Assembly: GCA_001871165.1 (NCBI GenBank)
Contig: MNUT01000024.1
Location: 1-57,827 of the forward strand
Source: Candidatus Falkowbacteria bacterium CG1_02_37_21
Lineage (GTDB): Bacteria > Patescibacteriota > Patescibacteriia > Patescibacteriales > UBA12465
DNA length: 57,827 bases
Direction of reading: 5' to 3'
Position 1 is the stretch's first letter; the number at the start of each line of letters is the position of its first letter. Made by a program: the position numbers and the translations under genes. Positions 571 through 56,295 of the stretch are shown one piece after another. The notes under the pieces are model-generated. The model searched no databases and was not told where the DNA came from. It saw only the letters and a list, made by a program, of their open reading frames with translations.

Positions 571-924
571 CTACAAATTAAAATGACGTTTTAAATAATC
601 CTTGATTTTTATCACCGTTTCTTCGTTTATTTTTCCTATTACTTTTTCAAACCGAATATAATCAAAAGATGTTATACAATATACTTTAGCCAATGAATCA
701 GACATTAAATTATTTTCTTCACCAGCTTCTATTAAAATATCATCAGACATGCGATTGTCTTTTTGTGAGGTAAGGGGGATTATAGTAACCAAATTAGTCT
801 TTTTTAATTGTTCATCTGATTGCACGACAATGGCTGGTCTTTTGTTTTGATATTCGTGTCCGACACTAGGATCAAATTCAACCCAAACAATATCGCCGAA
901 GCTAATCTCGCCTTTTGTCATCAT
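571..924 (-). CDS. PemK/MazF-family endoribonuclease toxin
   Basis: 117 aa. GDIVWVEFDPSVGHEYQNKRPAIVV and IIPLTS motifs are typical of the MazF/PemK fold. Its start overlaps the upstream gene's stop by 4 nt (ATGA). Confidence 0.85.
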   Translation of the reverse strand: MMTKGEISFGDIVWVEFDPSVGHEYQNKRPAIVVQSDEQLKKTNLVTIIPLTSQKDNRMSDDILIEAGEENNLMSDSLAKVYCITSFDYIRFEKVIGKINEETVIKIKDYLKRHFNL

Positions 925-1766
925 AGATTTTCGTAGTAATCGTATTCTTTTTTAGAGATAGAACCTAATTGACTTAACACGTCTTTAGCTCCCGTCATTT
1001 TAAAATATCTTAAATCATCAACGCTTCTTTTGGCGTAAGGTGTTTGACGTTCAAAAACAAGATTATACGGAATAACTTCTTTATCATCGGTTAATTGCCA
1101 AGGGGCGTCGCCATGTGAATATTCCTCTATTTGTGAGGCAGACATATTAGAAAGAGACCCTATAACATCGTCAATAACTTTGGTTTCTTTAGTGCATAAA
1201 GAATTCAACTCGTGGTTAATTAAATTAATATAACGTTTTATTTTTAAGCCAAAATAATCCTGAATAATAATTTTAAGTTCTTGATTAGCCCTCATTTCTT
1301 CTATAACTGGTGAATATTGGTTAGCTACCGGCGCTGGGCCATATTGTAAATGGATATAGTTTAAGCCAGAGATCGATTTATTGTTGATTTCGAAATTATT
1401 AAAATCAATAAAATATAATAATTTATACAACACTGTTTCTCCGACGTTTGGTTTTCCTGCACATTTTTCTAGAATATACAGAATAATGTTTTTTAATTTT
1501 TTTGGCTCAAAATTATTAACCTTTTTTTGATTTTTAGTTAGTTCTATATTTGGTAATTCATCTTCAATTAAGAAATAATCAGTTTTTAATTTAAAAACTT
1601 CGGCTATTTGGGCCAACTCTAAAAAATCAACGCTTCTGTGGCCTTGTTCAATTTGCGATATAGCAACTCTTGATAAGTTAATTTTTTGAGCCAAATCTTC
1701 TTGGCTCATACCCTCAAATTCTCTTAAAGCCTTAATTTTATTGCCTAAAGATTGTTTATTAATCAT
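921..1766 (-). CDS. XRE-type HTH fused to a DUF4065/Panacea-like (SocA/GepA-like) domain; putative antitoxin
   Basis: 281 aa. N-terminal HTH: LREFEGMSQEDLAQKINLSRVAISQIEQGHR. The C-terminal LYKLLYFIDF...LQYGPAP pattern resembles DUF4065. It lies upstream of, and translationally coupled to, the MazF-like gene. Confidence 0.7.
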   Translation of the reverse strand: MINKQSLGNKIKALREFEGMSQEDLAQKINLSRVAISQIEQGHRSVDFLELAQIAEVFKLKTDYFLIEDELPNIELTKNQKKVNNFEPKKLKNIILYILEKCAGKPNVGETVLYKLLYFIDFNNFEINNKSISGLNYIHLQYGPAPVANQYSPVIEEMRANQELKIIIQDYFGLKIKRYINLINHELNSLCTKETKVIDDVIGSLSNMSASQIEEYSHGDAPWQLTDDKEVIPYNLVFERQTPYAKRSVDDLRYFKMTGAKDVLSQLGSISKKEYDYYENL

Positions 1767-6640: not shown

Positions 6641-7141
6641 TTATGATAAATCAGCCAATATTTTTAATTCTAGTTTCTTCGTTATCGTATCTAGAGTGGC
6701 AAAAGTGGCCTGATACCAGGTGCCCGAGATATTGCCGGGGTTGCTTATAATTATTTCGTCTCTTTTTTCCCACCAAGGTTTGTGAGTGTGTCCGTAAAAA
6801 ATAAAATTTGGTGTTGCCTGATTGCTATTAATAATTTTATTGATTTTTTCCGGTTCATGGCAGAAGGCTATTTCTAGGCCGTCAATATTAATTTGACCGC
6901 TTGATCCGTAGTAGTGGAAATTCTTATCGTTTAGTATTTCGGGCTCTTCATATAATTCCACATTTCCTTTAACCATAAAAACCTCGCCGCTAAAGTTAGT
7001 GACGAGGTGATTTAAAGTGTTTAAAGTTGTGGTGTCGCCGCAGAAAATAATTTTATTGATGTCTTGTTTGTTGCACCAGCTTAAACATTTATCCAGATTA
7101 GCCAGGTTGTCGTGAATATCGGAAATTATAGCTAGTAACAT
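6641..7141 (-). CDS. YfcE/MJ0936-family metallophosphoesterase
   Basis: 166 aa. Motifs SDIHDN, CGDTT, KGNVE and GHTH are the calcineurin-like phosphoesterase signature. Confidence 0.8.
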   Translation of the reverse strand: MLLAIISDIHDNLANLDKCLSWCNKQDINKIIFCGDTTTLNTLNHLVTNFSGEVFMVKGNVELYEEPEILNDKNFHYYGSSGQINIDGLEIAFCHEPEKINKIINSNQATPNFIFYGHTHKPWWEKRDEIIISNPGNISGTWYQATFATLDTITKKLELKILADLS

Positions 7142-7176: not shown

Positions 7177-7752
7177 TTACTTTTTTCCGCGCAACTTAAT
7201 TTCATAGGTCATCTGCTCCAGTTTACGCAAGTGTCCACGCGCTTGATCATATTTGGTTCGTAAATATCCGGTTAAGTCAAAATCAACTAGTTGTGACATA
7301 ATATCGTCCGCCGTTTTTTTTATTTTTGCTATTTCGTTAAATTTTCCGGCGGCCGCGCGGTTAGTGGCATAACGCACCATCTCACCGATTAAATCACATA
7401 GTCCGCCGAGATAGGCCTCGTAATCTAAAGTAAGTCCTGTTACAGCCGTAATTTCTTTATTGGTAATTGTTAAATAAAAAGTTTTCCCTTCCAGATATTC
7501 TTCTGCGGCCGCTCGATACGGTCCTTCGCGACGGAGACGTTCGGCGCCAAAACGTTTTTCTAAATCTTTTAAATTTTTTTCCATGTCTGCCAACTTAATT
7601 TTGGCGACTTTTAGGTCATCGCGTTGTAGGGCAAAAATAGTTTTTTTTGCTTCAAATAAAATATTGTTGGAAGCACTGTTAATTTGTCGTCGCTGCGATT
7701 CATTATCGCGATAATTTTGTTTTAACCGCGTCAAGAATTTAGTATTAACCAT
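7177..7752 (-). CDS. Translin-family protein (putative nucleic-acid-binding protein or nuclease)
   Basis: 191 aa, all-helical. The C-terminal pattern LDYEAYLGGLCDLIGEMVRYATNRAAAGKF...LRTKYDQARGHLRKLEQMTYEIKLRG aligns by eye with human translin LDVEDYLSGVLILASELSRLSVNSVTAGDY...LRKRYDGLKYDVKKVEEVVYDLSIRG. Confidence 0.7.
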   Translation of the reverse strand: MVNTKFLTRLKQNYRDNESQRRQINSASNNILFEAKKTIFALQRDDLKVAKIKLADMEKNLKDLEKRFGAERLRREGPYRAAAEEYLEGKTFYLTITNKEITAVTGLTLDYEAYLGGLCDLIGEMVRYATNRAAAGKFNEIAKIKKTADDIMSQLVDFDLTGYLRTKYDQARGHLRKLEQMTYEIKLRGKK

Positions 7753-7768: not shown

Positions 7769-10700
7769 TTAAATTACTCGGAAGACTTCCTCTAAACTGG
7801 TGTCGCCGTTTAAGGCTTTTAAGACGCCATCTTGTAACATGGTTACTGTTCCGTCGGCGATAGCCGCTTCTTCAATTTCAAAGTCGGTAATGCCGTCTTT
7901 TTGAATAAGTTTTTGAATGGTGGGGCTCATGGTAATGGCTTCGTATAAACCAATGCGACCCTTATAACCGATATTACTACATTTTTCACAGCCAACCGGT
8001 TCATAAAATTCTATTTTATCAGGGATAGAGACATCTTTATTTTGGATGCTAGCTAAAATATCTTTTACTTTTTGTAAATCTTCTGGAGAAGTGTTAGCTA
8101 CTTTTTTACAGACAGGACAGAGGCGGCGCACTAAGCGTTGGCCGATGGTAAATTCTATAGAGTTAGCTAAAGTTTGACGCTCTAAGCCGAGTCCGACAAA
8201 ACGAGAAATGGCGCCGGCTGCATTATTAGCATGAATAGTAGATAAGACTAAATGTCCGGTTAGAGCAGCCTCAATAGCAATTTTGGCGGTTTCATTATCA
8301 CGAATTTCTCCAATCATCATGATGTTAGGATTTTGTCGCAGCAGGGAACGCATAGCGGCCGCAAAAGTATAACCGCGTTCTTCATCAATTTGCGTCTGCA
8401 TCACGCCGGCCAGCTGATATTCAATTGGATCTTCTACTGTAATAATTTTTACATCCGGTTTATTAAGTTGGTTGAGAATGCTATACAGAGTAGTTGTTTT
8501 TCCGCTGCCGGTTGGTCCGGTAGTTAGAATAATGCCACGAGTTTTTTTCATGGCCAGCTCTAGAGATTTTAGAGAAACCGAAGTAATACCTAATTTAGCC
8601 ATTTCTAAGTTAGCGGCGGAAGTAGATAATAGACGCACAACGATAGTCTCTCCGTAACCGCCAGCGATAATAGAGAGACGGCAGTCAATTTTATTTGTCG
8701 GTAAATAAATAGTAAAACGACCGTCAAAAGTAGCTCGCTTAATATTAGTTGGCGCACCGGCCAGTATTTTAATTTCCGAGAGAATTTGTAGATAACTGGT
8801 TTTTGGTAAGCTTAAAATATCATGCATTACTCCATCAATACGAAAACGCACCTTAACATCATGTTCGGTTGGCTCAATATGAATATCACCGGCATCGCTA
8901 ATAGCACCAAGGGCCATAATCAGAGAAATTAATTCCCCGACGGGTATTTCTTTAATGGTAGCTCCGGCTTGAGAGATATCTTTACTGAGTTTTTCGGCCG
9001 TTGCCATTTCTTCCGGCTTAATTTTTACACCGCGGCCAATAGTCTGAGAAATAACGACATCATACAAATCATTAACATAATCAAAATTACCGACGACGCG
9101 ATAAACTTCTTCTAAGGAAGTCATGCCATCCAAAGCTTTTAAGACACCGTCCTGTAACATGGTAATCATTCCGTCCTCAATAGCTTGCTGTAAAATTTTA
9201 AAGGAAGAATTATTATCCACGGTCAGCTGTTTAATCTTATCACTCATCGTAAAAATTTCAAAAATACCGGTGCGGTCCTTATAGCCAATATTATTACAAT
9301 GTTCACAACCCGGTCCGGCCGTATAAACTTTCGGTAAGATGGAAGGAATTTCAATCCCGGCTTTAGGTGATACGACTGCTAAAATTTTATTAACTTGTTC
9401 TGCTTCATTTACATCAAGTTCATGTTCTTGTCGGCACTTGGGACATAGTTTACGGATTAAACGTTGCCCGATTACAACATTAATAGAGGGAACCAAGAAG
9501 TATGGTTTAACGCCTAAATCGACTAAACGAGGAATAGTGCCGGCGGCATCGTTGGTATGAAGAGAAGATAAAACTAAATGCCCGGTAATAGAAGATTGGA
9601 CTGCGATTTCCGCTGTTTCTAGATCACGAATTTCCCCGACCATAATTATATTGGGATCTTGCCTGAGTAGAGATCGCAAACCGGACGCGAAAGTATAACC
9701 GCGTTTTTCATCTATTTGACTTTGATTAATGCCTGGTAGCTGATATTCAATCGGATCTTCCAGAGTAATAATTTTAGTACCGGGTTTATTTAACTTATTA
9801 ACGATAGAATAAAGAGTAGTGGTCTTGCCGCTACCGGTGGGACCAACGCCAAGAATTAAACCGTTTGGTTTGGCGATTTCCCTGTTTAGAATCGGCATAA
9901 TTTCTGACCTGACACCAAGACTGGCTAGCTCTAAAATTGTAGAGGAAGAATCTAAAATTCTCATAACCACGCTTTCGCCATAAGAAGTTGGCAAAAAAGA
10001 ACAACGAACATCTATTTTTTTGTCTTTTAAATAGATGGTGTAGCGTCCGTCTTGAGGAGTGTTACTAATGTTTATTTTTACTCGTGCTAGAATTTTTAAG
10101 CGAGAAATTATCCGGCTCCATTTATCTCGGTCAATGATGGCTGCTTCTTGTAAGACGCCATCAATACGAATGCGTACTGCTACGCCATTTTCTTCCGCCT
10201 CAATATGAATATCACTGCCCCCTACTTTGAGAGTAGTGGCTAAAATAAGAGTGACGACGTCAGTAATATTTACCTCGTTAATTTTATCATTGAGACTTTT
10301 GTAGTTATCAATTGCGTCTTGAAACTTATTTAAACTAGCTTCGTCGATTGAAACGCCACTATCAAGTTTTGTTATTTTAGGTAAACTTTTATAGGCTTCT
10401 AAAGCGGTCATTAGGCTCGTGGGAGATATAATGTATAGTTTAACATCGGCAAAATATTGATCACCCAGGCGAGCTAGTTCAGTGGTAATTTCTTCATTAG
10501 GTTCTACGCAGGCAACTCGAATATGTTTACCGTCATAGAAAAAAGAAATCGCGCCTATCTCACGAGCGCGTTCTTCGCTTAACAAACTTAAAGCTTCTGG
10601 ACTGATAGGAAAAGTAGCCAGATTAACATAATCTAATCCTAAACCTTGGGCCGTCTGATTGGCTTGTTTTTCAATCTCTTTTAGTTTTATTTCTTCTTGT

Positions 10701-10780
10701 TTTTTAGTAAAACGACCGGCGACGCTCTCTTCGTCATCGGTCGGATTAGTCAAATTTGAGATGGAAGCAAAGTCACTCAT
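7769..10780 (-). CDS. pilB: Tandem-fused double PilB/GspE-type secretion/pilus ATPase (T2SSE_N + ATPase module 1 + ATPase module 2)
   Basis: 1003 aa with two complete modules. Walker A GPTGSGKTTT occurs at aa 313 and aa 755. Asp box: LEDPIEYQ / VEDPIEYQ. Walker B: IMVGEIRD / MMIGEIRD. His box: GHLVLSSLHTNDA / GHLVLSTIHANNA. Each module has a CxxC...CxxC tetracysteine motif. Confidence 0.9.
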   Translation of the reverse strand: MSDFASISNLTNPTDDEESVAGRFTKKQEEIKLKEIEKQANQTAQGLGLDYVNLATFPISPEALSLLSEERAREIGAISFFYDGKHIRVACVEPNEEITTELARLGDQYFADVKLYIISPTSLMTALEAYKSLPKITKLDSGVSIDEASLNKFQDAIDNYKSLNDKINEVNITDVVTLILATTLKVGGSDIHIEAEENGVAVRIRIDGVLQEAAIIDRDKWSRIISRLKILARVKINISNTPQDGRYTIYLKDKKIDVRCSFLPTSYGESVVMRILDSSSTILELASLGVRSEIMPILNREIAKPNGLILGVGPTGSGKTTTLYSIVNKLNKPGTKIITLEDPIEYQLPGINQSQIDEKRGYTFASGLRSLLRQDPNIIMVGEIRDLETAEIAVQSSITGHLVLSSLHTNDAAGTIPRLVDLGVKPYFLVPSINVVIGQRLIRKLCPKCRQEHELDVNEAEQVNKILAVVSPKAGIEIPSILPKVYTAGPGCEHCNNIGYKDRTGIFEIFTMSDKIKQLTVDNNSSFKILQQAIEDGMITMLQDGVLKALDGMTSLEEVYRVVGNFDYVNDLYDVVISQTIGRGVKIKPEEMATAEKLSKDISQAGATIKEIPVGELISLIMALGAISDAGDIHIEPTEHDVKVRFRIDGVMHDILSLPKTSYLQILSEIKILAGAPTNIKRATFDGRFTIYLPTNKIDCRLSIIAGGYGETIVVRLLSTSAANLEMAKLGITSVSLKSLELAMKKTRGIILTTGPTGSGKTTTLYSILNQLNKPDVKIITVEDPIEYQLAGVMQTQIDEERGYTFAAAMRSLLRQNPNIMMIGEIRDNETAKIAIEAALTGHLVLSTIHANNAAGAISRFVGLGLERQTLANSIEFTIGQRLVRRLCPVCKKVANTSPEDLQKVKDILASIQNKDVSIPDKIEFYEPVGCEKCSNIGYKGRIGLYEAITMSPTIQKLIQKDGITDFEIEEAAIADGTVTMLQDGVLKALNGDTSLEEVFRVI

Positions 10781-10782
10781 AA

Positions 10783-11763
10783 TTAAGATCGACGGCTAAA
10801 GATTCGTTCTAACTTAGCCAGGCCACGCCCATTTTTTAGACTTAAAAATAAGTTGGTCCAGGCCGCAGTCTGGAAGCTTGTCATTAACGCGCCGAAAAAT
10901 ACGATAATAGCAATAGTTAAGAACATCATCAGGGCCACTAACCAGATTAGTTGGAATATGAGCCCTAAGAGTAAGAGCGGTAATAAGAAAATTGCTAGCA
11001 AGGTTACTAAAACCATGCTGGCTACAAAATTAATTAAGAAGAGAATGATTGCCGCTTCTACACTTATTAACCAATGTTTTTTAAATAAATGCCAACCGTG
11101 TTCCAGAGAAGATACTAAAGAATGTTTATCTAAGACTTCGTAAGCGATAGAATATTTTATCATTAAGGATAAACCCATTGCCAGGGGAACAAAAATAATA
11201 AAAATAATGGTGTAGATAGTCGCTAATAAGCTCGTATCTTTAATCACCATGAACAGTAAGGGGAGGCTAACAAGAAACATCACTCCAGCTACTACTACTC
11301 TAATAAGAAAGTTAAGCCCTAGCAGTGGCCAGAAATAACGATGTCCTTCTGTTAAACCGTTGCGAATACTGAGTACTGGTTCTTTTTTCTTAGTTTCTAG
11401 AAGTTTTTTACTGTCACTAACCAGGGCGGCCTGAGAGGTAATAGCTAGCCAAATAAAGAAAATTAAAAAAACAGCGCTAATTATAGTTACTGCTAATAAG
11501 CTGAGCACTGTCCAAATGTCATAACTAAAGATATGAATGAAACCCGTGAAGAAGCTTCTTACAGTCTCACCGAGGGCTAAAATATCATAAAGGCGGATAT
11601 AAGAGCCGTCAACAATACCCTGATTCAAGTTACGGGAGACTATTTGATATTCCCAAGAACCACTGCCGGCGGCTAGAGAGGCAAAAATACCGAAGAACCA
11701 AAGATATTTGTGGCGCCAAGATATATCCCAAGCCTGGCGAAATAAGCTACGATAAGAAAACAT
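10783..11763 (-). CDS. Polytopic integral membrane protein of unknown function
   Basis: 326 aa with about 6-7 hydrophobic helices. Its stop is 2 nt from the start of the double ATPase gene, so the two are probably co-transcribed. Confidence 0.7.
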   Translation of the reverse strand: MFSYRSLFRQAWDISWRHKYLWFFGIFASLAAGSGSWEYQIVSRNLNQGIVDGSYIRLYDILALGETVRSFFTGFIHIFSYDIWTVLSLLAVTIISAVFLIFFIWLAITSQAALVSDSKKLLETKKKEPVLSIRNGLTEGHRYFWPLLGLNFLIRVVVAGVMFLVSLPLLFMVIKDTSLLATIYTIIFIIFVPLAMGLSLMIKYSIAYEVLDKHSLVSSLEHGWHLFKKHWLISVEAAIILFLINFVASMVLVTLLAIFLLPLLLLGLIFQLIWLVALMMFLTIAIIVFFGALMTSFQTAAWTNLFLSLKNGRGLAKLERIFSRRS

Positions 11764-23653: not shown

Positions 23654-24538
23654 ATGTCGAGCTTAAATACCGAGGCGACAAAATTAACGGACTTAGAATT
23701 AAGAGAGGCAATCATTAAAACGATTGCTTTCTTTGATTTATTTGACTGGCCCTTAACAGCCCGGGAAATTAAAAAAAATTTTGCCGGTCGGGCGTCATTA
23801 TCAGAAGTTATAAAGTTATTGGATAAAGAGCTTGGGTTTAATGAAGAAACGGAAGAAAAAAAATCAGCTAAGGTTATAGATAGTCAAGACGGTTTTTATT
23901 TTTTATCCGGTCGCTCTGCTATTATCGCTATTCGTCAGCAGCGTTATAATTATTTTGTGAGAAAATTAAAGATTGCCCGTCGCTTTGCTCGAGTGTTTAG
24001 TTTTTTCCCATTTGTCCAAAAAGTATATTTAAGTAATGTCATAGGCTCTTATAATCTGCGAGATGGCAGTGATATTGATTTTCTGGTAGTTACCACTCCG
24101 CAACGTTTGTGGCTAAGTCGTTTATATTGCGCCGGTCTGGCAAAAATTCTAAATCGTCGTCCGACGCCAAGTTATAAGCGAGATACTATTTGTTTAAGTT
24201 TTTATATGTCCGCGGATTACCAGGATTGGCATGATTTACGTCTTATTGGTGACGATCCATATTTTGATTACTGGCGTAATAATTTAGTTTTATTGTATAA
24301 TAGAGATAGACAATATAATTTTATAAAATTTTTGGATAAGTTAGGTAATTTATTGGAGGTGGCTGTAAAAAAATTACAATTAAAAATTATGCCGTCGTAT
24401 TTACGGACGGCTATTAATAATTCTGACGGGGTAGTTGTCAATGATTCCGTTTTAAAGTTTTATATTCACGATCGGCGTCGTGAATATGCCGATAAATATG
24501 CAAAAAAAATTCAAGAAATATTTAGCGCGATTAATTGA
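23654..24538 (+). CDS. Hypothetical protein with a nucleotidyltransferase-like motif
   Basis: 294 aa. GSYNLRDGSDIDFLVVT resembles the GS...DxD minimal nucleotidyltransferase signature. It ends in TGA. Confidence 0.5.
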   Translation: MSSLNTEATKLTDLELREAIIKTIAFFDLFDWPLTAREIKKNFAGRASLSEVIKLLDKELGFNEETEEKKSAKVIDSQDGFYFLSGRSAIIAIRQQRYNYFVRKLKIARRFARVFSFFPFVQKVYLSNVIGSYNLRDGSDIDFLVVTTPQRLWLSRLYCAGLAKILNRRPTPSYKRDTICLSFYMSADYQDWHDLRLIGDDPYFDYWRNNLVLLYNRDRQYNFIKFLDKLGNLLEVAVKKLQLKIMPSYLRTAINNSDGVVVNDSVLKFYIHDRRREYADKYAKKIQEIFSAIN

Positions 24539-25799
24539 ATATAGTTTTTATGTTTTTGTTTTTTCTTTTCTTTGGCAAACAAAGTTAATTCTTCGTCCGG
24601 CCTCATCAAATTTTAATGAAATTTCTTTATATTTCAGTCATTTTTTATTACTGTTAATTCTTATCGAATTTTTTGTATATAAATTACGATTTCGCGGCGA
24701 AGAAGAACCGGTCTCTCCTCTTTGGTTAACTTTGGCCGGATTAGAACTAGGAATCTTGTTTTCTTTTTTCTTTGCCTCTGATCAATGGTTGTCTTTTTAT
24801 TTTTATGTTTTATTTTTATCAGGCATTGCTTTATTTTATTTGCTTAGAGAAGGTCATGCCGCTTATGATTGCGATGACCCTGGTGTGGATAAAGTGAAAA
24901 TAATTTATAGTTTTTTGGCCAGTCTTTTTCTGCAAGCTACTCTTGGTATTTACCAATTTTTAACTCAACATGCTCCGGCTAATAAATATTTGGGATTAGC
25001 GCTCCATGATCCTAATACTTTAGGGACATCTGTAGTTGAAGCGGTCTCCGGTCGCTGGTTAAGAGCTTATGGCGGTTTTGATCATCCCAATATTTTTGGT
25101 GGAGTTTTAGCGGTAGCTTTAGTTATTTCCGCTTATTTACTGGCCAGTCGAAAAGTGATTCGCCGCAAGAGTGATGTTGTGGAGTCATTATCTTTATTTA
25201 TTTTTCATTTTGTTGCTTTGTTTGCCTTGTTCTTTAGCTTTTCTCGTGCTGCCTGGCTGGCAACAATTGTCGGCTGGCTAGTTCTTTGTGTGGTCTTGGC
25301 TCTAAAGAGAGATGCTTGGATCTTCGGCAGATTTTTAGTTTTGATGTTTTTTTCCGCGGTCATGGTTTTAATTGTTGTCATTCCCTATCAAGATTTATGT
25401 CGTGTTAGAATAGAGGCGACCAGTCGTTTGGAAAATAAATCTGTCACGGAGCGTCTTTCCTATGTTCAAGAAGCTAAGGAATTGTGGTCGCAGAATTGGG
25501 TAACCGGTGTCGGGGTCGGTAATTATTTATTGGCCCTAGAGAAGAAGGCCTCTGTAAAAAAAGCGGCTTGGGATTATCAGCCGGTTCATAATGTTTTTCT
25601 GCTATTAGGAGCTGAGAGTGGTATTTTTACTGTATTATTTTTTGTTTCTTTCTTGTTTATTTTAATAACAAAAAACCGCCGTGAAGTTTTCGCGCCGGCT
25701 TTATTTGCCACTATTTTAGTATTGATGTTATTTGATCATTGGCTAATTAGTTTACCCTTTGGCATTATCTTCCTGTTTTTGATATTGGGCCTTTTGTAG
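24498..25799 (+). CDS. O-antigen ligase (Wzy_C)-like polytopic membrane protein
   Basis: About 10 TM helices, with FSFSRAAWLA in a Wzy_C-like loop. The track start at 24480 is GTG. The ATG at 24498 (MQKKFKKY) is preferred but uncertain. Confidence 0.7.
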   Translation: MQKKFKKYLARLIEYSFYVFVFSFLWQTKLILRPASSNFNEISLYFSHFLLLLILIEFFVYKLRFRGEEEPVSPLWLTLAGLELGILFSFFFASDQWLSFYFYVLFLSGIALFYLLREGHAAYDCDDPGVDKVKIIYSFLASLFLQATLGIYQFLTQHAPANKYLGLALHDPNTLGTSVVEAVSGRWLRAYGGFDHPNIFGGVLAVALVISAYLLASRKVIRRKSDVVESLSLFIFHFVALFALFFSFSRAAWLATIVGWLVLCVVLALKRDAWIFGRFLVLMFFSAVMVLIVVIPYQDLCRVRIEATSRLENKSVTERLSYVQEAKELWSQNWVTGVGVGNYLLALEKKASVKKAAWDYQPVHNVFLLLGAESGIFTVLFFVSFLFILITKNRREVFAPALFATILVLMLFDHWLISLPFGIIFLFLILGLL

Positions 25800-31249: not shown

Positions 31250-32260
31250 ATGATCGATACTAATAATCGTTTAATTAGCCCGATTGAACGCCAAGGCGAT
31301 GAAGCTTGGGATTTATCTTTGCGTCCCAAGACTTTGTCTGAATATATTGGTCAAAATAAAATTAAACAAAATTTGGAGATTACCGTGGCCGCCGCGCAGA
31401 AACGCGGTGAACCGATTGAGCATGTTTTATTATATGGTGCGCCGGGTTTAGGCAAAACTACTTTAGCTCACGTGATTGCCAATGAAATAGGAGCGAATAT
31501 TAGAGTGACCTCCGGTCCGGCAATTGAAAAAAGCGGTGATTTAGCCGCTATTTTAACTAATTTGGAAGCGGGGGATATTTTATTTATTGACGAAATACAT
31601 CGCTTACCAAAAATCGTGGAGGAAATTTTATATCCGGCCATGGAAGACTACGCCTTGGATATTATTATGGGCAAAGGCCCGAGTGCGCGGACTTTACGTT
31701 TGGATTTGCCTAAGTTTACCATTATCGGAGCGACAACTATGGCTAGTTTATTATCCGCCCCCTTGCGTGATCGTTTTGGAATTACTCATCATTTGAATTT
31801 TTATGAAACGGCAGACATTGAAAAAATTCTGCGACGCAGTGCTCGCATTTTAGGAATAGAAATTGACGGGGAGGCGGCTCTGGCTATTGCGCAGCGTAGT
31901 CGTCGCACGCCGCGTATTGCTAATCGTTTACTTAAAAGAGTACGTGATTATTGCGAAGTAAAGGGCGATGGCAAAATTTCTGTGAAGGATAGTCTGGAAG
32001 CTTTTCATATGTTGGAAGTAGATGAACTGGGCTTAGACTTAATAGATCGTTGTATCTTAGAAACCATTGTTAATAAATTTCAGGGCGGTCCGGTTGGTCT
32101 GAATACTTTAGCGGCTTCTACGGGAGAGGAAATGGATACGATAGAAAATGTTTATGAGCCTTATCTGATGCAACTGGGCTTTTTGGATCGTTCACCGCGG
32201 GGTCGTTTGGTGACTACTTTAGGTTATAAGCATTTAGGGCTCACGGGACCGTTGGTCTAA
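31250..32260 (+). CDS. ruvB: Holliday junction branch migration helicase RuvB
   Basis: 336 aa. [28 protein letters not shown] and [10 protein letters not shown]. Confidence 0.95.
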
Positions 32261-36244: not shown

Positions 36245-38950
36245 ATGATGAAGAAAAAAATAAAGCCTTGTATTTTATTTTTCGGTTTATCTGGTTTGAT
36301 TATTTCCGGTTTTTTTATTTTACTCATGTCGCCTTCTATCGCTTTCGCTCAAGATTTTGGTATAGATAAGGTATCTAATGCTTTAAATGGTTCTCTTTCT
36401 GTTGCCGCCGACCCACGCCTGATTGTCGGTCGTCTAATTCAAATTGCTTTGAGTTTTTTAGGCGTTATTGCGATTGTGTTAATAATGTATGCCGGATTTA
36501 TTTGGACTACTTCCGGCGGTGAAGAAGAAAAAATAGATAGTGCTAAAAAAATTCTGCGTAATGCTATTATTGGTTTGGCGATTATTATTTCGTCTTGGGC
36601 AATTGCTACTTATGTTTTGACCAGTTTAATGGCGGCGATTGGTGGCGGCGGTGGTGCTAATATTCCTGCCAATAATAATATTAGAATTAGCTCCGGTGCG
36701 GCAGCTTTAGGATCTTGTACAGTTGATACTCTTTATCCGAGTAATGGCGCTAAAGAAATACCGCGTAACACCTCATTGATGGTGACTTTTAAAGAGGATG
36801 TAAATTTGGATGGTCTTTGTGTTAATGATGCTGGGGTGTCTTGTACCTGTAATAACACGACTTGTCGTCAGATTAATCCGGAAGCGGTACAAATTTATAA
36901 GAGTGATTTAGGAAATGCCTGTGCGACTACTTGCCCCAGCCCTAATAGTAATACACTTGATGTTTCATTAAATTTGTCTAATGATCATAAAACTTTGATT
37001 TTAACACCATTAAGTCCTTTGGGATCCTCTGATGATAACACAGACTATTCGGTACGTTTAACAAATAAAGTGAAGAAGATAGACGGTTCCTCAATGTTTA
37101 AAAATTGTGGGTCAGATTTTCTTTATTGGTCTTTTGCCGTCAGTAATCGCTTAGATTTAACTCCACCGGAAGTACTCTTGCAGGGTATCTTTCCTTTACC
37201 TGATAATGAGGGGGATATATCTGGTGTAATGACGCCGGCTTCGTCGGCTGAGGGAGAAATATTGGTTAATAATTGTCCGACAATATATTCTGCGGCCAGT
37301 GTTATAAATATTGCGCCAAATACGGCGACAGTTATTTTAGATTATCATGGTAGTATCCCCCAATTTAAAATAAGTGTTCCGTCTGACGTACCGGACAAAG
37401 CACAACTTTTTGATAATGATGGTAATCTTTTGGGTGTTTCTGATTTTGATTCTGATGGCCAAATAATTTTTAAGACTTACCTTACCTTAACTGCCGTTAG
37501 TCATCCAGCCGGAAGCTCATGGACCGTTAATATTAATCCTGAACAATTAGCTGATACTCTTACAGTTGGTAGTGAGATTTATACATTTGCGAGGTCCATG
37601 GCCAATAATAATATTTTTGTACCAGGAACTTGTAATATTGTTCAGCAAGCCGTTAATATTCGTGCTAAATTAAGTGGTAGTGACGTAGTAGATGTTAGTC
37701 GGACGGGCAATCAGGTGCATTTAATAGCTAAAGTAGCCGGTGTGGCCGGTAATAATATTGTTGTGACCACTACAAACCCTGCCGCTCTAGCCATTACGTC
37801 TTTAGGCGGCGGGACTGATCGGTCTGAGTTTAAGCAGGCCCAGGATAAACCCGATCGTCCGATGAATTCCGTTATTCAAATTAATTTTAGTGAACCGATT
37901 AATCCGGTTACGATTTCCGGATCGGCTGCGGAAGTGGCTGACTATATTCGCGTAGTTAATGCCAGTGCCTCTAGTACTCCGGCAGGAGCGGTTTGCAGTG
38001 AGGACAAACAATGTTTGTCTTATAAATGTGAAGGTGGTGTTTGTCGGGGCGATTACTTGGCTGGTAAATTTATAGTCAGTAACGCCTATAAAACTTTAGA
38101 ATTTATTTCCGATAAAGAATGTGGCGTTAATGGTTGTGGTGAACAAATCTATTGTTTGCCCCCTAATAGTCATTTAAAACTAAATTTGGTGGCGGCTAAT
38201 TTAAAATCTTGTGACAGCGATACTGACTGTTTATCCAACAGTCCTTATACGCAGTGTTTGAATACGACTTTGGGTTATAAAACTTGTCAAAATCCCTTGG
38301 GCCAAAATTATCCAACGGCTAATTTGAGTAATTTGGATGGTATTGTGGACGCGGCGGCTAATTCCTTTGACGGTGATCGTAGCCAGACGGCGGAAGGACC
38401 TCTGGGTTTTTATAATGATAATTACCCGACCGCTACTAGCACCGTGACTCGTGACAAATATCAGTGGTCTTTTTACATTGGTGATAAGATTAATTTAACT
38501 TCACCTAAGATTACGTCTATTAGCCCTCTACCATCTAGTTTGAATGTTGGCGTATTGACACCGGTGGAAGTTACTTTTAATACCTTAATGCTAAATAGTA
38601 GTCTTCGTACCGGACAAGTAACCGTAAAAAGTGGTGACTCTACGGTTAAGCATAAATTAATTAATTTGCGAAGCTCTGTTCCTTCGCCTTTGGGTTATTG
38701 GGTGGAAAGTGACAATAAAGATGTGATGCCTTTAGACGGAGAGCCGGATATTACTGTCGCTAAAATTTCTCATACTCCTTTTAGTGAGTCCGTCACTTTA
38801 ATTTCTCAGATTGGTTCTGGCGTAAAAGATATTTATCAAAATTGTTATAAGCCTAGCGCCGGTCCGGATTGTAATTCCACCGCCGGACAACCATCTTGTT
38901 GTTTTGGTAGTCCCACCGCCACGTTAGGGGCAGACGGTAATTGTCAATAA
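36245..38950 (+). CDS. Giant surface protein A: signal peptide + VirB2/TrbC-like two-TM pilin hairpin + Gly linker + Ig-like (Big_5/SbsA-like) and Cys-rich extracellular domains
   Basis: 901 aa. The signal peptide ends AFA/QD. TM1 IALSFLGVIAIVLIMYAGFIW, loop TSGGEEEKIDSAKKILRNA, TM2 IIGLAIIISSWAIATYVL, then GGGGG. Three P.NG...V.VTF-type Ig-like segments and many Cys. Confidence 0.8.
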   Translation: MMKKKIKPCILFFGLSGLIISGFFILLMSPSIAFAQDFGIDKVSNALNGSLSVAADPRLIVGRLIQIALSFLGVIAIVLIMYAGFIWTTSGGEEEKIDSAKKILRNAIIGLAIIISSWAIATYVLTSLMAAIGGGGGANIPANNNIRISSGAAALGSCTVDTLYPSNGAKEIPRNTSLMVTFKEDVNLDGLCVNDAGVSCTCNNTTCRQINPEAVQIYKSDLGNACATTCPSPNSNTLDVSLNLSNDHKTLILTPLSPLGSSDDNTDYSVRLTNKVKKIDGSSMFKNCGSDFLYWSFAVSNRLDLTPPEVLLQGIFPLPDNEGDISGVMTPASSAEGEILVNNCPTIYSAASVINIAPNTATVILDYHGSIPQFKISVPSDVPDKAQLFDNDGNLLGVSDFDSDGQIIFKTYLTLTAVSHPAGSSWTVNINPEQLADTLTVGSEIYTFARSMANNNIFVPGTCNIVQQAVNIRAKLSGSDVVDVSRTGNQVHLIAKVAGVAGNNIVVTTTNPAALAITSLGGGTDRSEFKQAQDKPDRPMNSVIQINFSEPINPVTISGSAAEVADYIRVVNASASSTPAGAVCSEDKQCLSYKCEGGVCRGDYLAGKFIVSNAYKTLEFISDKECGVNGCGEQIYCLPPNSHLKLNLVAANLKSCDSDTDCLSNSPYTQCLNTTLGYKTCQNPLGQNYPTANLSNLDGIVDAAANSFDGDRSQTAEGPLGFYNDNYPTATSTVTRDKYQWSFYIGDKINLTSPKITSISPLPSSLNVGVLTPVEVTFNTLMLNSSLRTGQVTVKSGDSTVKHKLINLRSSVPSPLGYWVESDNKDVMPLDGEPDITVAKISHTPFSESVTLISQIGSGVKDIYQNCYKPSAGPDCNSTAGQPSCCFGSPTATLGADGNCQ

Positions 38951-38952
38951 TT

Positions 38953-41900
38953 ATGATGAAAAAAATTGGACGACAACTAGTTGGTGTTTTCATTCTCCTG
39001 GGCGTTTTCTTGTTCGCGCAATTTACTTTTGCTCAGGGCTTTGGCATAAATGAAGTCTCCAACGGCCTGAATGGATCTTTGGCTACTGCCGATCCGCGAG
39101 AGTTGGCGGTACGTATTATCAATATCGCCTTAGGTTTTCTGGGAATTATTGCTGTCTCCTTAACACTTTATGCTGGATATCTTTGGATGAGCTCAGCCGG
39201 CGATGAAGAAAAAATTGAAGATGCCAAGAAAATTTTACGTAACGCTGTTATCGGATTGGTAATTATTTTATCATCTTGGGCTATTGCCACTTTTTTAATT
39301 ACAAAACTGGGAGGAGCGATTGGCCCTAACACCGGCGGTTGTTTTGAAGGACAAATTTCTTCTTGTGGTTGTGGTGGTTCCATGGTTTGCACTGGCGGTT
39401 CTTTCGGTGCTTGTGTCGGCTCGGATTGCAGCGGCGGAGGAATTACGCCTTCCAGTTGCGACGGCAGTGCTAATCCTGGTTGTCAGGCAACAAGCCAAAT
39501 TTGTTCTACGGACGATTATTGCGATGCTGATAGCTGCGCTTGTAAGCCTAAGGGTTCCTTAGGAGATTCTTGTGATACCGATACGACTAACGCCACTTGT
39601 GATGCTGACAACAATCTCTGTTCCGAATATTTATCTTGCAGTGCCGATAGTTGTACTTGCGTCGGTCAGCCGGTTATTACCGGACTCAGTCCGGTGGGCG
39701 GTTTTTGTACTGAAGATCTAAATAAATCTTGTGTTACTGATGATGATTGTGCGGAAGTATGTGATCTGACGACGCCAAACGGTGCGACTGATAATTTTGT
39801 GACAATTTTAGGTAAGAACTTTGGTGAATATTCTGCTACTTCCAGTAAAGTAGTCTTTAGCGGAGCAGATCACACCCTCTTGACTAGTGTTGATGGTCGT
39901 CAACCGAACTCTTTAAATATTGCCTGCATTAATACTTGGCGAGACAACCAAATTGTTATTGCTATTCCCAGCGGTGCCGACTACGGTCCTTTGGCAGTGG
40001 TTAATCAAGATGGACAATCTGACACGACTAATAATGACTATGGTCCGGCCTTAGAAGATTTTCAAAAAAATAATATTACACGACCCGGTTTATGTTATCT
40101 TAATCCTCAGGCCGGAGTTTTAAGTTCTCAAGTTGCTTATCAGGGTATTAATCTTTATTCTAGTGAGGCTTACTTTGGTAATTATCAAACTAATGTCGCA
40201 GCACTAGACTCGCAGTTTATTAATAGTGCCGGCTTAACGGGGACTTCCACCATTCCGAATATTAAATCGGGAAATTCTGGCAGTTTTGTTCAGAATATTT
40301 CTAACGGTCAACCGGAAAAAAGTAATTATTTACTTTTCACTAAACAATCAGAACCCGGCTCCGGCCCTTTTATTTCCAGTTTTTACCCCACCGCCGGTGT
40401 CGCCGGACAATACGTTACTATTAGAGGTAAGGGCTTTGGTGGCGCGCGTGGTTTAAATCATGTTTATTTTGGTAGTTTAGAAGCGGCTTATGATTTTCCC
40501 GATGTATGTTTAAATTCGGTTTGGAAAGATGATCAGATTATTGTTAAAGTCCCGACTGGTTTGAGTAACGGTTATCAAGCGATTCAAGTGAAAATTGGTA
40601 TTACTACGATTGATACGCAAGAATTAAACCCCAATACTTTTCAAACGGATGATAGTTTAGCGCTTAAGTCTAGTTTATGTAAAATTGATCCAGAACGAGG
40701 TCCGCCCGCTACGCCGGTAACTTTGTGGGGAGAATATTTCGGTGGTGTTAATAGTGAAGGTTTAGTTAAATTTAATTTAGAAAAAATTGCCACCGGTACT
40801 ATTAAAAGAAGCGGACAAGCCGATATGATAGAAACCGCTGTGCCGGTTGGAGCTGTATCTGGCCCGGTTAAGGTTGTTAATAATAGTACTTCGGGAAATG
40901 AACTTAATTTTAATGTCGGGCAATGTAAAGTGGATGCCGATTGTGGGGATCAGGTTTGTTGCCCGGTTAATACTTATAAAGAAGGGCGTTGTGTTAATAC
41001 CATAACCGACTGTATATCCGACATTCCGACCTCTGTCTTTGAATGGAAATTTAGTACCGGTTTTGGTACTTGTGTCGGTCCGAATTGTGATGATCCTTGT
41101 AGAGATTTTACTACCGCGGAAGAATGCAGTCAGCAAACGGCTTGTTGTTTTGATTCCAAGGCAACAGATGATTTAACAGATGATTCTTGTCGTTCCGGTA
41201 GTGCAATTAGTTCCGGTGCCGATCAGGGTTATTGCGCTTATTATAATTGTGATGCCGTGAATATTACGCAATGTGCCACTTCTACTCCTTTAAAAATTGG
41301 TTCTTATTTTGGTCAGGCTGATTGTATTACGGAATGTGTTAAAGATGATCCTTGTTCTTCTTTGACTAGTGTAGCTACTTGTCGGCAAAATAGTCGCTGC
41401 TGTTTTGATGCCAATAAAACTATTGATGCCGCTGACGATGTTTGTAGTTTAGGCGACGCGATTAGTTCCGGCGCTGACCAGGGTTATTGCGCTTATTATG
41501 ACTGTGATGCTGTTGATACTACTTTATGTGCTACTTCCACTCCTATCAAAGTTGGTACTTATAGTAGTATAAGTTCTTGTGATCGTTCATGTTGGACTCC
41601 TCCCAGTGGAGCCGGATTGTCATGCGCCGGCGCTACTGTTAGTTCTACGTGTGATACTACTGTCTGTAATTATCTTGGTTTAAGTTGTCTTACGTCTGAC
41701 GGCAGCTTTAATGCTACCGGTCCGGACTGTGGTACTTGTTGCTGTCAGCCGGGAACGATTGATGAGTTAACCGGTTGGAAATGTTTGGCTGATAAAGGAA
41801 ATTGTGATGGAGTTAATCGTGGTTTATTCTGCGGCTGCTCTAGCGATGATGAATGCGGAGCCAAGGAAACTACCGGTTGTGGCGTTGATACTTGTTGTAC

Positions 41901-43923: not shown

Positions 43924-43946
43924 CATTAGCATTTATATAAATATCT

Positions 43947-55525: not shown

Positions 55526-55533
55526 TTTTTATT

Positions 55534-56295
55534 ATGGAACTTTATTTTTTTATTTTAGCTGCCGTGATTGGTTTGGTGATTGGCAGTTTTTTAAATTGTT
55601 TGATTTGGCGTTTATATAAAGATGAGAGCCTGAGTGGACGCTCTTATTGCCCACACTGCCGTCAAACTATTGCTTGGTATGATAATATCCCTTTGCTTAG
55701 TTTTATTTTACTCGGTGGTCGTTGTCGGCGTTGTCAGAAAACAATTTCTTGGCAGTATCCTTTAGTGGAGTTGGCAACGGCAGTGTTGTTTGTGTTAACT
55801 TGGCAGCTGGATATGACTACTCAGAATTTTTCTTTACAGTTGTTGCGTGATTGGTTATTAATTGTGACACTTATTATTATCTTCGTGTATGATTTTCGTT
55901 GGCAGCTAGTGCCGATGTTACCGCTTTGGTTCATGATGTTGGTAATTTTCTTACTTAATTTAGTATTAGGTTTTTCTTGGATTTCTCTTTTATTGTTTGG
56001 CGCTGTTGGCGCGGCTTTTTTCTTAATCCAATATATTATTACGGCGCGACGAGGTGTGGGGGAAGGTGATATTTGGTTGGGGGTATTTTTAGGATTAGCT
56101 TACCCGGACCCCAAGCAATTATTTTTAATTATGTTAACGGCTTATACCTTGGGTTCTATTTTTGGACTTTTTCTAATTATAAGCGGTAAAAAAAAATGGC
56201 AGTCACGTTTAGCTTTAGGGCCGTTTTTGGCCTTGGGGGCTATCATAACTTTAATTTGGGGAAGACAAATCATCACTTGGTACTTGGGATTTTAG
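55534..56295 (+). CDS. pilD: Prepilin peptidase (A24 family)
   Basis: 253 aa. N-terminal CPHCRQ...CRRCQ zinc motif with WYDNIPLLSF, and catalytic Asp contexts VYDFRWQ and GEGDIWLG. Confidence 0.9.
   Translation: MELYFFILAAVIGLVIGSFLNCLIWRLYKDESLSGRSYCPHCRQTIAWYDNIPLLSFILLGGRCRRCQKTISWQYPLVELATAVLFVLTWQLDMTTQNFSLQLLRDWLLIVTLIIIFVYDFRWQLVPMLPLWFMMLVIFLLNLVLGFSWISLLLFGAVGAAFFLIQYIITARRGVGEGDIWLGVFLGLAYPDPKQLFLIMLTAYTLGSIFGLFLIISGKKKWQSRLALGPFLALGAIITLIWGRQIITWYLGF

What the first reader, a model, noticed from the sequence alone, without database searches (positions are those of the whole stretch)
7769..10780. Single polypeptide carrying two complete, apparently active PilB/GspE ATPase modules
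- Secretion and pilus ATPases normally have one N2-CTD ATPase unit per chain and assemble as hexamers.
- This 1003-aa ORF has a T2SSE_N-like head (aa ~45-130) followed by two full units (aa ~170-565 and ~615-1003, offset 442 aa).
- Both units retain Walker A (GPTGSGKTTT), the Asp box, Walker B, the His box and a CxxC...CxxC tetracysteine motif.
- By eye the cores are roughly 60% identical. The C-terminal tails are nearly identical (MLQDGVLKAL(D/N)G.TSLEEV(Y/F)RV).
- The ORF is uninterrupted, so this is a fusion rather than two adjacent genes.
- A covalent dimer would give a trimer-of-dimers ring and would allow the two sites to specialise.
- No pilC/gspF platform gene is adjacent.
Basis: partly seen in the sequence, partly recalled or inferred. 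Interest (0 to 1): 0.7.

Follow-up and report, generated by a model that had tools for sequence, protein, structure and literature searches.

The report
Two-in-one PilB pilus motor ATPase
This gene from an ultrasmall groundwater bacterium (Patescibacteria) really does encode two complete PilB-type motor ATPase units joined in one protein; the fusion is conserved in hundreds of related species and has apparently never been described or studied.

Summary
ORF 7769..10780 (minus strand, 1003 aa) has one N1/MshEN-like head and two full N2D-CTD ATPase modules, 51% identical to each other.

Every residue known to matter in Geobacter PilB is present in both modules. That covers Walker A Lys, Asp-box Glu, catalytic Glu, both His-box His, three N2D arginines, pore Asp/Glu and the four Zn cysteines. 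Each is kept in 115-120 of 120 close homologues.

It is not an assembly artefact:
- At least 120 protein clusters of 1003-1007 aa come from independent assemblies.
- 230 GTDB species genomes carry the family-specific junction.
- 76 of the 77 fetched loci not cut by a contig end have the frame open.

The architecture is rare: 14 of 15,460 T2SSE-type cluster representatives. It is old, with members down to 39% identity across Parcubacteria-type Patescibacteria. Module 2 is the derived copy.

No platform (PilC) gene lies in the window or within 10 kb either side. The gene is an orphan outside any pilus operon; only pilD is in the window.

Best reading: three chains form a pseudo-hexameric ring with alternating modules that drives type IV filament assembly. 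The ring arrangement and the pilus role are inferred, not shown.

This is a new variant of a known kind. It sits in databases under generic names, and I found no paper on it.

The parts
7769..10780 (-). Whole tandem PilB/GspE-family ATPase gene (1003 aa plus stop)
   Evidence: Uninterrupted ORF. Full-length homologues of 1003-1007 aa in at least 120 clusters.
10385..10642 (-). Single N1 domain (MshEN/T2SSE_N-like), aa 47-132
   Evidence: Pfam PF05157, E 4.8e-8. The c-di-GMP motif RLGxx... is absent. Present once only; module 2 has no N1.
9926..10270 (-). Module 1 N2D, aa 171-285, with arginines R246, R259 and R274
   Evidence: These align to PilB-Gm R257/R271/R286 (alignment, PMC5424180). Invariant in 120/120 homologues.
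9086..9925 (-). Module 1 CTD, aa 286-565
   Evidence: Contains Walker A 313-320, Asp box E341/D342/E345, Walker B G382-E383-I-R-D386, His box H401/H408 and Zn cysteines C446, C449, C492, C495.; conserved in 115-120 of 120 homologues.
8945..9085 (-). Inter-module linker, aa 566-612
   Evidence: The first part, GNFDYVN(D/E)LYD.VISQTIGRG, is nearly invariant and the rest is variable. Length is 42-51 aa in all main-group tandem lineages. AF2 predicts helices with low to moderate confidence.
8600..8944 (-). Module 2 N2D, aa 613-727, with arginines R688, R701 and R716
   Evidence: Invariant in 120/120 homologues.
7772..8599 (-). Module 2 CTD, aa 728-1003
   Evidence: Contains Walker A 755-762, Asp box E783/D784/E787, Walker B G824-E825-I-R-D828, His box H843/H850 and Zn cysteines C888, C891, C931, C934.; conserved in 118-120 of 120 homologues.
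10783..11763 (-). Upstream 326-aa polytopic membrane protein (about 6 TM segments), unknown family
   Evidence: Its stop lies 2 nt before the ATPase ATG. No Pfam hit. Syntenic in all loci of the close clade that are not cut at that end, but absent next to distant tandem genes. Fast evolving, median 46% identity. Probably co-transcribed; a functional link is not shown.
7177..7752 (-). Downstream translin-family gene (191 aa), 16 nt after the ATPase stop
   Evidence: Pfam PF01997. Syntenic within the close clade only.
6641..7141 (-). Downstream metallophosphoesterase gene (166 aa)
   Evidence: Pfam PF12850. Syntenic within the close clade only.
55534..56295 (+). Prepilin peptidase PilD, the only other type IV filament gene in the window
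   Evidence: Pfam A24_N_bact plus Peptidase_A24.

Best explanation
Shown:
- The gene encodes a lineage-specific, covalently duplicated PilB-type (extension-type, Zn-binding) motor ATPase.
- The layout is N1 head, N2D-CTD module 1, a linker of about 47 aa, then N2D-CTD module 2.
- The fusion is real and old, and both modules are under strong purifying selection.
- By sequence, both modules keep everything needed to bind and hydrolyse ATP and to couple to neighbouring subunits.
- Module 2 is the derived copy. It carries fixed substitutions at positions that are otherwise nearly invariant in single-module PilBs.

Inferred:
- Three chains assemble into one ring of six ATPase modules in which modules 1 and 2 alternate, giving a C3 pseudo-hexamer with three N1 heads instead of six.
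- This ring docks on a PilC/GspF-type platform encoded elsewhere in the genome and powers assembly of type IV pilus-like filaments.
- In current models a platform trimer presents two different cytoplasmic domains to alternate N2Ds, so an alternating ATPase ring would pair each module type with one platform domain.
For: Real and conserved:
- Searches give at least 120 clusters, 230 species genomes, and 76 of 77 complete loci with an open frame.
- Median identity of 71% makes it one of the best conserved proteins in the neighbourhood, on a par with UvrA.

Membership of the PilB clade:
- Best PDB sequence matches are PilB of M. xanthus and Geobacter, E 1e-99 to 1e-101.
- The AF2 model matches PilB and PilF cores with target-normalised TM-score 0.87-0.92.
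- The tetracysteine motif that marks the PilB/GspE clade is present in both modules (PMC5424180).

Both modules competent and equally constrained:
- Motif conservation in both.
- Mean pairwise identity 0.805 for module 1 and 0.788 for module 2.
- Motifs are also kept in both modules in 13 distant tandem clusters, with minor exceptions.

Asymmetry:
- 25 fixed differences, with module 2 derived at 20 of the 25.
- Module 2 sequences of the main group form one clade.

In-plane ring:
- The family builds rings from N2D(n)-CTD(n+1) packing units (PMC5424180).
- Pore residues D/E are kept in both modules.
- The PulE6:PulF3 model places Cyto1 and Cyto2 on alternate N2Ds (PMC10790770).
- An unrelated protein, P0135, fuses two T2SSF cytoplasmic-domain matches to two T2SSE modules in one chain.

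Pilus context:
- pilD is in the window.
- Falkowbacteria encode type IV pilins (PMC8179133).
Against: - No oligomeric state was tested. AF2 pTM of 0.48 gives no confident inter-module geometry, and neither coordinates nor multimer prediction were available.
- Most natural tandem P-loop ATPases I know of (p97, ClpB, KaiC, EccC; own knowledge) stack their modules in two rings rather than placing them side by side.
- The gene is never next to pilus genes in any lineage examined. Its neighbours are DNA-metabolism and housekeeping genes.
- I could not establish whether the same genomes also hold a canonical PilB or a PilC.
- The NJ backbone of the module tree is weakly supported.
Confidence: 0.6

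Rival explanations
1. Stacked double ring. Six chains form two coaxial hexameric rings, one of module 1 and one of module 2, as in p97, ClpB or KaiC. Only one ring would touch the platform and the other would act as a regulatory or auxiliary motor.
For: Stacking is the commonest arrangement of natural tandem ATPase modules (own knowledge). The linker of about 47 aa, partly helical, is long enough. Module 2 lacks an N1 domain and is the derived copy, which would fit a non-equivalent role.
Against: PilB-type motors act through their N2D face and pore on the platform, not by threading a polymer, so a buried second ring has no obvious job. Yet module 2 keeps its pore residues, arginine fingers and all catalytic residues under strong selection. 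P0135 pairs two platform domains with two ATPase modules, which fits side-by-side use.
Confidence: 0.2
2. Not a pilus motor. The orphan PilB-like lineage, single or tandem, has been recruited to another task in Parcubacteria, for example DNA uptake or processing linked to recombination, or secretion independent of classical pilus genes.
For: The gene is never in a pilus operon. In several lineages it sits beside ruvB-yebC-ruvC, polA, polX or a DHH phosphoesterase. In this window it is followed by translin and a metallophosphoesterase and is near a UvrA paralogue. Each module scores 234-237 bits on the ComGA model.
Against: Gene order in tiny, dense genomes is weak evidence. ComGA scores are below the 300-bit cut-off, and the PilB and GspE models score much higher. 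A competence pilus ATPase is still a type IV filament motor, so this rival overlaps with the main explanation. All PilB-specific features are kept, including the N1 domain, Zn motif and pore residues.
Confidence: 0.15
3. Artefact or pseudo-fusion. An assembly collapse, a frameshift or a read-through has joined two adjacent pilB genes.
For: One of the 77 complete loci (L053) has the frame interrupted. One close relative of a tandem module 1 (P0192) is a true single-module protein.
Against: The frame is open in 76 of 77 complete loci from different species and assemblers and in at least 120 protein clusters from NCBI, JGI, ENA and Logan. The junction peptide is nearly invariant. The apparent stand-alone module 2 (P0140) is a contig-edge fragment.
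Confidence: 0.02

Closest known systems
PilB, type IVa pilus extension ATPase (Geobacter metallireducens 5TSG/5TSH; Myxococcus xanthus 3JC8)
   Same: Same fold (target-normalised TM-score 0.87-0.92). 42-43% identity per module over the Foldseek alignments. N1 plus N2D plus CTD order. Walker A, Asp box, atypical Walker B, His box, two arginine fingers, pore D/E and the tetracysteine Zn site (PMC5424180).
   Different: Two N2D-CTD units per chain with only one N1. Not encoded with pilC, pilM, pilN or pilO. Each half alone scores below the NCBIfam PilB equivalog cut-off (475 and 415 against 675.65).
GspE/EpsE, type II secretion ATPase (Vibrio 1P9R, 4KSR, 4PHT)
   Same: Same clade and same motifs. 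The GspE model scores about as well as the PilB model.
   Different: Patescibacteria have no outer membrane or secretin (PMC6744442), so a classical T2SS is unlikely. The tandem architecture also differs. In 4KSR/4KSS GspE was fused to Hcp1 to stabilise the hexamer (own knowledge); here nature fused two motor units.
Thermus thermophilus PilF (6F8L; chain of 913 aa)
   Same: A long PilB-family protein of similar overall size.
   Different: PilF is long because its N-terminal GSPII/N1 domains are multiplied (own knowledge). Consistent with this, its single ATPase core aligns at chain residues 378-884. Here the ATPase core itself is duplicated.
Alternating or tandem ring ATPases in other superfamilies (F1/V1 alpha3-beta3; p97/ClpB/KaiC; engineered single-chain ClpX)
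   Same: Duplicated P-loop modules that diverge and share work within a ring (own knowledge).
   Different: A different superfamily. In F1/V1 the two types are separate genes and one is non-catalytic. In p97, ClpB and KaiC the modules stack. Covalent ClpX is man-made.
P0135-type protein (GCA_964384625.1): two T2SSF cytoplasmic-domain matches plus two T2SSE modules, 1047 aa
   Same: Two ATPase modules in one chain.
   Different: Independent origin: its two modules are sisters with bootstrap 94. The neighbourhood is not CPR-like. Platform domains are fused on. Module 1 has lost the Walker A Lys and the Asp-box Glu.

Membership tests
PilT/VirB11-like secretion ATPases (Pfam T2SSE, PF00437) | T2SSE domain above the gathering score | tested here: met
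   754.6 bits against a cut-off of 24.9, with two full-length stretches. A module HMM finds two full modules.
PilT/VirB11-like secretion ATPases | Walker A Lys, Asp-box Glu that coordinates Mg, catalytic Glu of the atypical Walker B, and the His box | tested here: met
   K319/K761, E345/E787, E383/E825, and H401+H408 / H843+H850. Each is conserved in 118-120 of 120 homologues in both modules. Mapped to PilB-Gm E357, E395, H413 and H420 through and PMC5424180.
PilT/VirB11-like secretion ATPases | Two arginine fingers in the N2D | tested here: met
   R259/R274 and R701/R716 correspond to PilB-Gm R271/R286 and are invariant in 120/120.
PilB/GspE clade (extension-type) | Tetracysteine Zn-binding motif, absent from the PilT/PilU clade | tested here: met
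   C446, C449, C492, C495 and C888, C891, C931, C934 are invariant in 120/120. The criterion comes from PMC5424180.
PilB/GspE clade | N-terminal N1 (T2SSE_N/MshEN-type) domain | tested here: met
   PF05157 at aa 47-132, 33.3 bits against a cut-off of 23.1. It is present once per chain, so once per two modules.
PilB/GspE clade | One N2D-CTD unit per chain, with six chains per ring | tested here: not met
   There are two units per chain. The ring stoichiometry itself is not testable here.
PilB equivalog (TIGR02538) / GspE equivalog (TIGR02533) | Score above the curated equivalog cut-off | tested here: inconclusive
   The whole protein passes (878.5 against 675.65; 893.5 against 630.25), but only because two modules add up. 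Each half alone fails (475/415 and 475/430).
Type IV pilus / T2SS machinery | Encoded with, or at least in the same genome as, the platform PilC/GspF, PilM/N/O and pilins | tested here: inconclusive
   None were found in the window or in the roughly 10 kb (left) and 2.8 kb (right) viewed beyond its ends, nor next to any relative. pilD is present. The rest of the genome could not be read.
MshEN-type c-di-GMP receptors | Two RLGxx(L/V/I)(L/V/I)xxG...LxxxLxxQ motifs | tested here: not met
   No match in the protein. The motif comes from PMC5013675.
PilT/PilU retraction ATPases (TIGR01420) | Score above the subfamily cut-off; no Zn motif and no N1 | tested here: not met
   The halves score 177 and 157 against a cut-off of 319.1. 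The Zn motif and N1 domain are present.
ComGA competence ATPase (NF041000) | Score above the equivalog cut-off | tested here: not met
   234.5 and 237.4 against a cut-off of 300.

The most novel reading that the evidence does not exclude
The tandem protein forms a true C3 ring. Module 1 N2Ds are dedicated to one cytoplasmic domain of a trimeric PilC and module 2 N2Ds to the other, giving a fixed 3:3 register between motor and platform. If so, the platform cannot step freely around the ATPase ring. Instead the motor would work by local, alternating pushes. That would bear directly on the open question of whether PilB rotates PilC. It would also provide a natural single-chain system in which alternate subunits can be mutated independently.
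Probability: 0.3. Interest if true: 0.8.

Novelty: new variant of a known kind. Interest (0 to 1): 0.55.

Why it matters
How PilB/GspE motors turn ATP hydrolysis into filament growth is still argued. The open points are C2 rotary models against others, a dimeric against a trimeric platform, and rotation against piston motion.

Testing subunit asymmetry in a homo-hexamer needs engineered covalent multimers. Here evolution has supplied one: a covalent dimer in which both sites are preserved but one copy has diverged in a fixed way. It is kept in at least 230 species of Patescibacteria, a group whose episymbiotic lifestyle is thought to depend on type IV pili.

The protein offers three things:
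- An independent check on the 6:3 ATPase:platform model.
- A tractable protein for half-site mutagenesis.
- A marker for an unrecognised orphan PilB lineage in Parcubacteria.

The sequences are already public under generic names, so this is an undescribed variant rather than a new kind of machine.

Tried and rejected
1. Assembly collapse or frameshift: rejected.
2. Split two-gene relatives as intermediates. P0140 (390 aa, module 2 only) is a contig-edge fragment. P0192 (558 aa) is a genuine single-module protein nested among tandem module 1 sequences, and its contig ends 28 nt after the stop. So no two-gene form was found.
3. The upstream 326-aa membrane protein as a hidden platform. It has no Pfam match even at E 0.01, evolves fast and is absent beside distant tandem genes. 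Not supported as an obligatory partner.
4. c-di-GMP control through the N1 domain: the motif is absent.
5. Pilin genes in the window: no class III signal motif in any frame.
6. Extending the contig on both sides to find pilus genes: none found.
7. A junction alignment across all tandem lineages was too divergent for the genome scan, so I used the close-family junction instead.
8. Using AF2 to read the inter-module geometry. pTM was 0.48 and no coordinates are returned, so the result is uninformative.
9. Literature searches found no description of a tandem PilB/GspE in the library. Terms tried: PilB + Patescibacteria + tandem; 'two ATPase domains' + PilB; T2SSE + tandem; Parcubacteria + PilB; Falkowbacteria + pili; a review of PilB and its cofactors.
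10. I could not determine whether the same genome encodes PilC or a second PilB.
Full report
**Observation**

The window holds an uninterrupted 1003-codon ORF at 7769..10780 on the minus strand.
- Pfam finds one MshEN/T2SSE_N-type N1 domain (aa 47-132) and two full T2SSE domains.
- The two units (aa 171-565 and 613-1003) align to each other over 399 residues at 51% identity, E 8e-136. Everything else is as described: Walker A at 313 and 755 (offset 442), two CxxC...CxxC sets, and almost identical C-terminal tails.

**Not an artefact**
- A search of 5.8 billion proteins returned at least 120 clusters (at 90% identity) that are 70-100% identical to the query. All are 1003-1007 aa, come from NCBI, JGI, ENA and Logan assemblies, and are named only 'GspE/PulE family protein' from Patescibacteria or Candidatus Falkowbacteria.
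- A scan of one genome per GTDB species with peptide patterns drawn from the end of module 1 and the start of the inter-module junction found 230 genomes.
- Of the 80 loci fetched, 76 have an open frame of at least 1004 codons, three are cut by a contig end and one (L053) is interrupted.
- The first 20 residues after module 1 (GNFDYVNELYD.VISQTIGRG) are nearly invariant. An intergenic spacer or a mis-join would not be conserved like this.

**What each module is**
- By sequence the best solved relatives are PilB of M. xanthus and Geobacter (E 1e-99 to 1e-101), then GspE and Thermus PilF. PilT is far weaker.
- An AF2 model (mean pLDDT 77.8) matches PilB and PilF cores with target-normalised TM-score 0.87-0.92.
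- No PDB chain covers more than one module; the highest query-normalised TM-score is 0.36.

I mapped residues using the alignment to 5TSG and the residue roles in McCallum et al. 2017 (PMC5424180). The chain numbering is offset by 20 from the paper's.

| Role (PilB-Gm residue) | Module 1 | Module 2 |
|---|---|---|
| Walker A Lys | K319 | K761 |
| Mg-coordinating Asp-box Glu (E357) | E345 | E787 |
| Catalytic Glu (E395) | E383 | E825 |
| His box (H413, H420) | H401, H408 | H843, H850 |
| N2D arginines (R257, R271, R286) | R246, R259, R274 | R688, R701, R716 |
| Pore residues (D398, E400) | D386, E388 | D828, E830 |

All of these, and all eight Zn cysteines, are conserved in 115-120 of 120 homologues or invariant in the 60-sequence alignment.

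The modules evolve at the same rate within the family. Mean pairwise identity is 0.805 for module 1 and 0.788 for module 2, against 0.615 for N1 and 0.626 for the linker. So neither module is a decaying pseudo-domain.

Each half alone is below NCBI's PilB, GspE, ComGA and PilT equivalog cut-offs. The protein belongs to the PilB/GspE clade but cannot be assigned to a named orthologue.

**Asymmetry**
- At 25 aligned positions both modules are at least 97% conserved but carry different residues.
- At 20 of these, 133 single-module relatives favour the module-1 state, and at only five the module-2 state.
- Several module-2 states replace residues that are nearly invariant in single-module PilBs: S189G (94% S), L368M (94% L), D375N (97% D) and T409A in the His-box region (87% T).
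- Module 2 is therefore a derived copy that is itself under purifying selection. It also lacks an N1 domain.

**How rare and how old**

An exhaustive HMMER scan of 1.84 billion cluster representatives found 15,460 T2SSE-type proteins at E no greater than 1e-30. Only 14 are full tandems (978-1047 aa, 36-62% identical to the query). Named members are Paceibacterota, 'Parcubacteria group' (KKU82539.1) and Falkowbacteria.

A bootstrapped NJ tree of separated modules (weak backbone) shows:
- Module 2 sequences of twelve lineages form one clade (bootstrap 45).
- These lineages share a linker of 42-51 aa with a G-D-x-x-Y-I-E-x-L-Y-like start, consistent with one old origin.
- Module 1 sequences stay interspersed with single-module PilBs.
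- In three proteins (P0126, P0129, P0135) the two modules are sisters (bootstrap 96, 100, 94).
- P0126 and P0129 nevertheless sit in the same genomic slots as main-group tandems. This could be independent duplication or gene conversion; I could not decide which.

Catalytic motifs are kept in both modules in nearly all Patescibacteria lineages. The small exceptions are GEIRS/N in module 1 of three lineages and loss of the Zn site in P0131 module 2.

**Context**

The window is ordinary chromosome: aminoacyl-tRNA synthetases, GyrA, RuvB, SecDF, FtsA and others.
- The ATPase gene is preceded, 2 nt away, by a 326-aa polytopic membrane protein with no family match.
- It is followed by translin-family and metallophosphoesterase genes.
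- This order is universal in the close clade, but so are the housekeeping flanks, so it says little about function.
- In distant tandem lineages the neighbours differ: polA-tsaE-DHH upstream and ruvB downstream, or polX and ruvB.
- A single-module Parcubacteria PilB-like gene occupies the same slot before ruvB-yebC-ruvC.

The tandem genes therefore look like derivatives of an orphan PilB-like gene that is not part of any pilus operon. No T2SSF/PilC gene is in the window or in the roughly 10 kb (left) and 2.8 kb (right) viewed beyond its ends. No pilin signal motif occurs in the window in any frame. pilD is present at 55534..56295. Falkowbacteria are reported to encode modular type IV pilins (PMC8179133), and CPR bacteria generally carry PilB, PilT, PilC and PilM/N/O but no secretin (PMC6744442).

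**Mechanism**

What is shown: a covalent pair of competent PilB modules, one of them derived.

What is inferred: three chains build a six-module ring with alternating modules. The reasons are:
- PilB and GspE rings are built from N2D(n)-CTD(n+1) packing units, and work is delivered through the N2D face and the pore (PMC5424180). Both modules keep those elements.
- The current PulE6:PulF3 model places the platform's two non-identical cytoplasmic domains on alternate N2Ds (PMC10790770; also cited in PMC11656802). An alternating ATPase ring would mirror that arrangement.
- P0135 fuses two T2SSF cytoplasmic-domain matches to two T2SSE modules in one chain, which suggests one-to-one pairing.

Against this, stacked rings are the usual solution for natural tandem ATPases (own knowledge), AF2 gave no confident inter-module geometry (pTM 0.48), and the pilus role is not anchored by gene context. 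I put about 0.6 on the overall explanation, 0.2 on a stacked arrangement, and 0.15 on a role that is not pilus assembly in the strict sense.

**Novelty**

The sequences have been public since the 2015 groundwater genomes. Eight literature searches and checks within four of the papers read found no description of a PilB/GspE protein with two ATPase cores. The known 'long' PilB, Thermus PilF, multiplies N1 domains, not the motor.

I rate this a new variant of a known kind, of moderate to good interest. It is a natural covalent dimer that could be used to test subunit asymmetry and motor-platform register in type IV filament motors.

Noticed in passing
L088 8001-11144 (protein P0135, GCA_964384625.1): A 1047-aa protein with two T2SSF (platform cytoplasmic-domain) matches at the N-terminus, two T2SSE modules and no TM segment. 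Module 1 has lost the Walker A Lys (GSGTT) and the Asp-box Glu (EDPVQ). Its neighbours are ECF sigma/anti-sigma, sulfatase and MoxR/BatA genes, so it is not a CPR organism. This is an independent platform-plus-double-ATPase fusion.
   Followed up: partly
L083, L084, L085, L087, L089 (relatives); window 31250..32260 for ruvB: In Parcubacteria the orphan PilB-like gene, single-module or tandem, recurrently sits beside ruvB(-yebC-ruvC), polA/polX, tsaE and a DHH phosphoesterase. In this window ruvB is 20 kb away, and the gene is instead followed by translin and a metallophosphoesterase, with a UvrA paralogue nearby. This may be mere synteny or may hint at a link to DNA uptake or processing.
   Followed up: partly
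window 10783..11763 (-): A 326-aa membrane protein with about 6 TM segments and no Pfam family. Its stop lies 2 nt before the ATPase start codon. It is conserved in position but fast evolving (median 46% identity) across the fetched loci.
   Followed up: partly
window 36245..47357 (+): Three consecutive giant ORFs of 901, 1660 and 1136 aa. The first two have an N-terminal T4SS_pilin (PF18895) match. All three carry Ig-like modules (Big_5, TIG, fn3, He_PIG). They are followed by TSP3-repeat proteins and are probably a cell-surface or adhesion locus.
   Followed up: no
window 571..1766 (-): A MazF/PemK toxin gene overlaps an HTH-plus-SocA/Panacea antitoxin gene. The exact 281-aa antitoxin sequence is indexed in 97 blocks of the public contig collection, which is unusually widespread for an identical protein.
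   Followed up: no
window 53186..56295 (+): pilD (prepilin peptidase) lies directly after a 779-aa Wzy_C/O-antigen-ligase-like protein with TPR repeats and before ftsA-ftsZ. A second Wzy_C protein is at 24480..25799.
   Followed up: no
L053 (CAYSIJ010000003.1): This is the only one of the 77 complete loci in which the tandem frame is interrupted; the longest open stretch is 778 codons. It could be a pseudogene or an assembly error.
   Followed up: no
L086 908-2584 (protein P0192): A genuine single-module PilB (558 aa, natural stop) that is 69% identical to module 1 of tandem P0132 and nests among tandem module 1 sequences. It may reflect secondary loss of module 2. The contig ends 28 nt after the stop.
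   Followed up: partly
window 7769..10780, aa 176: The database cluster representative P0001 (listed as 100% identical) differs from the window protein at one residue (V176F).
   Followed up: yes
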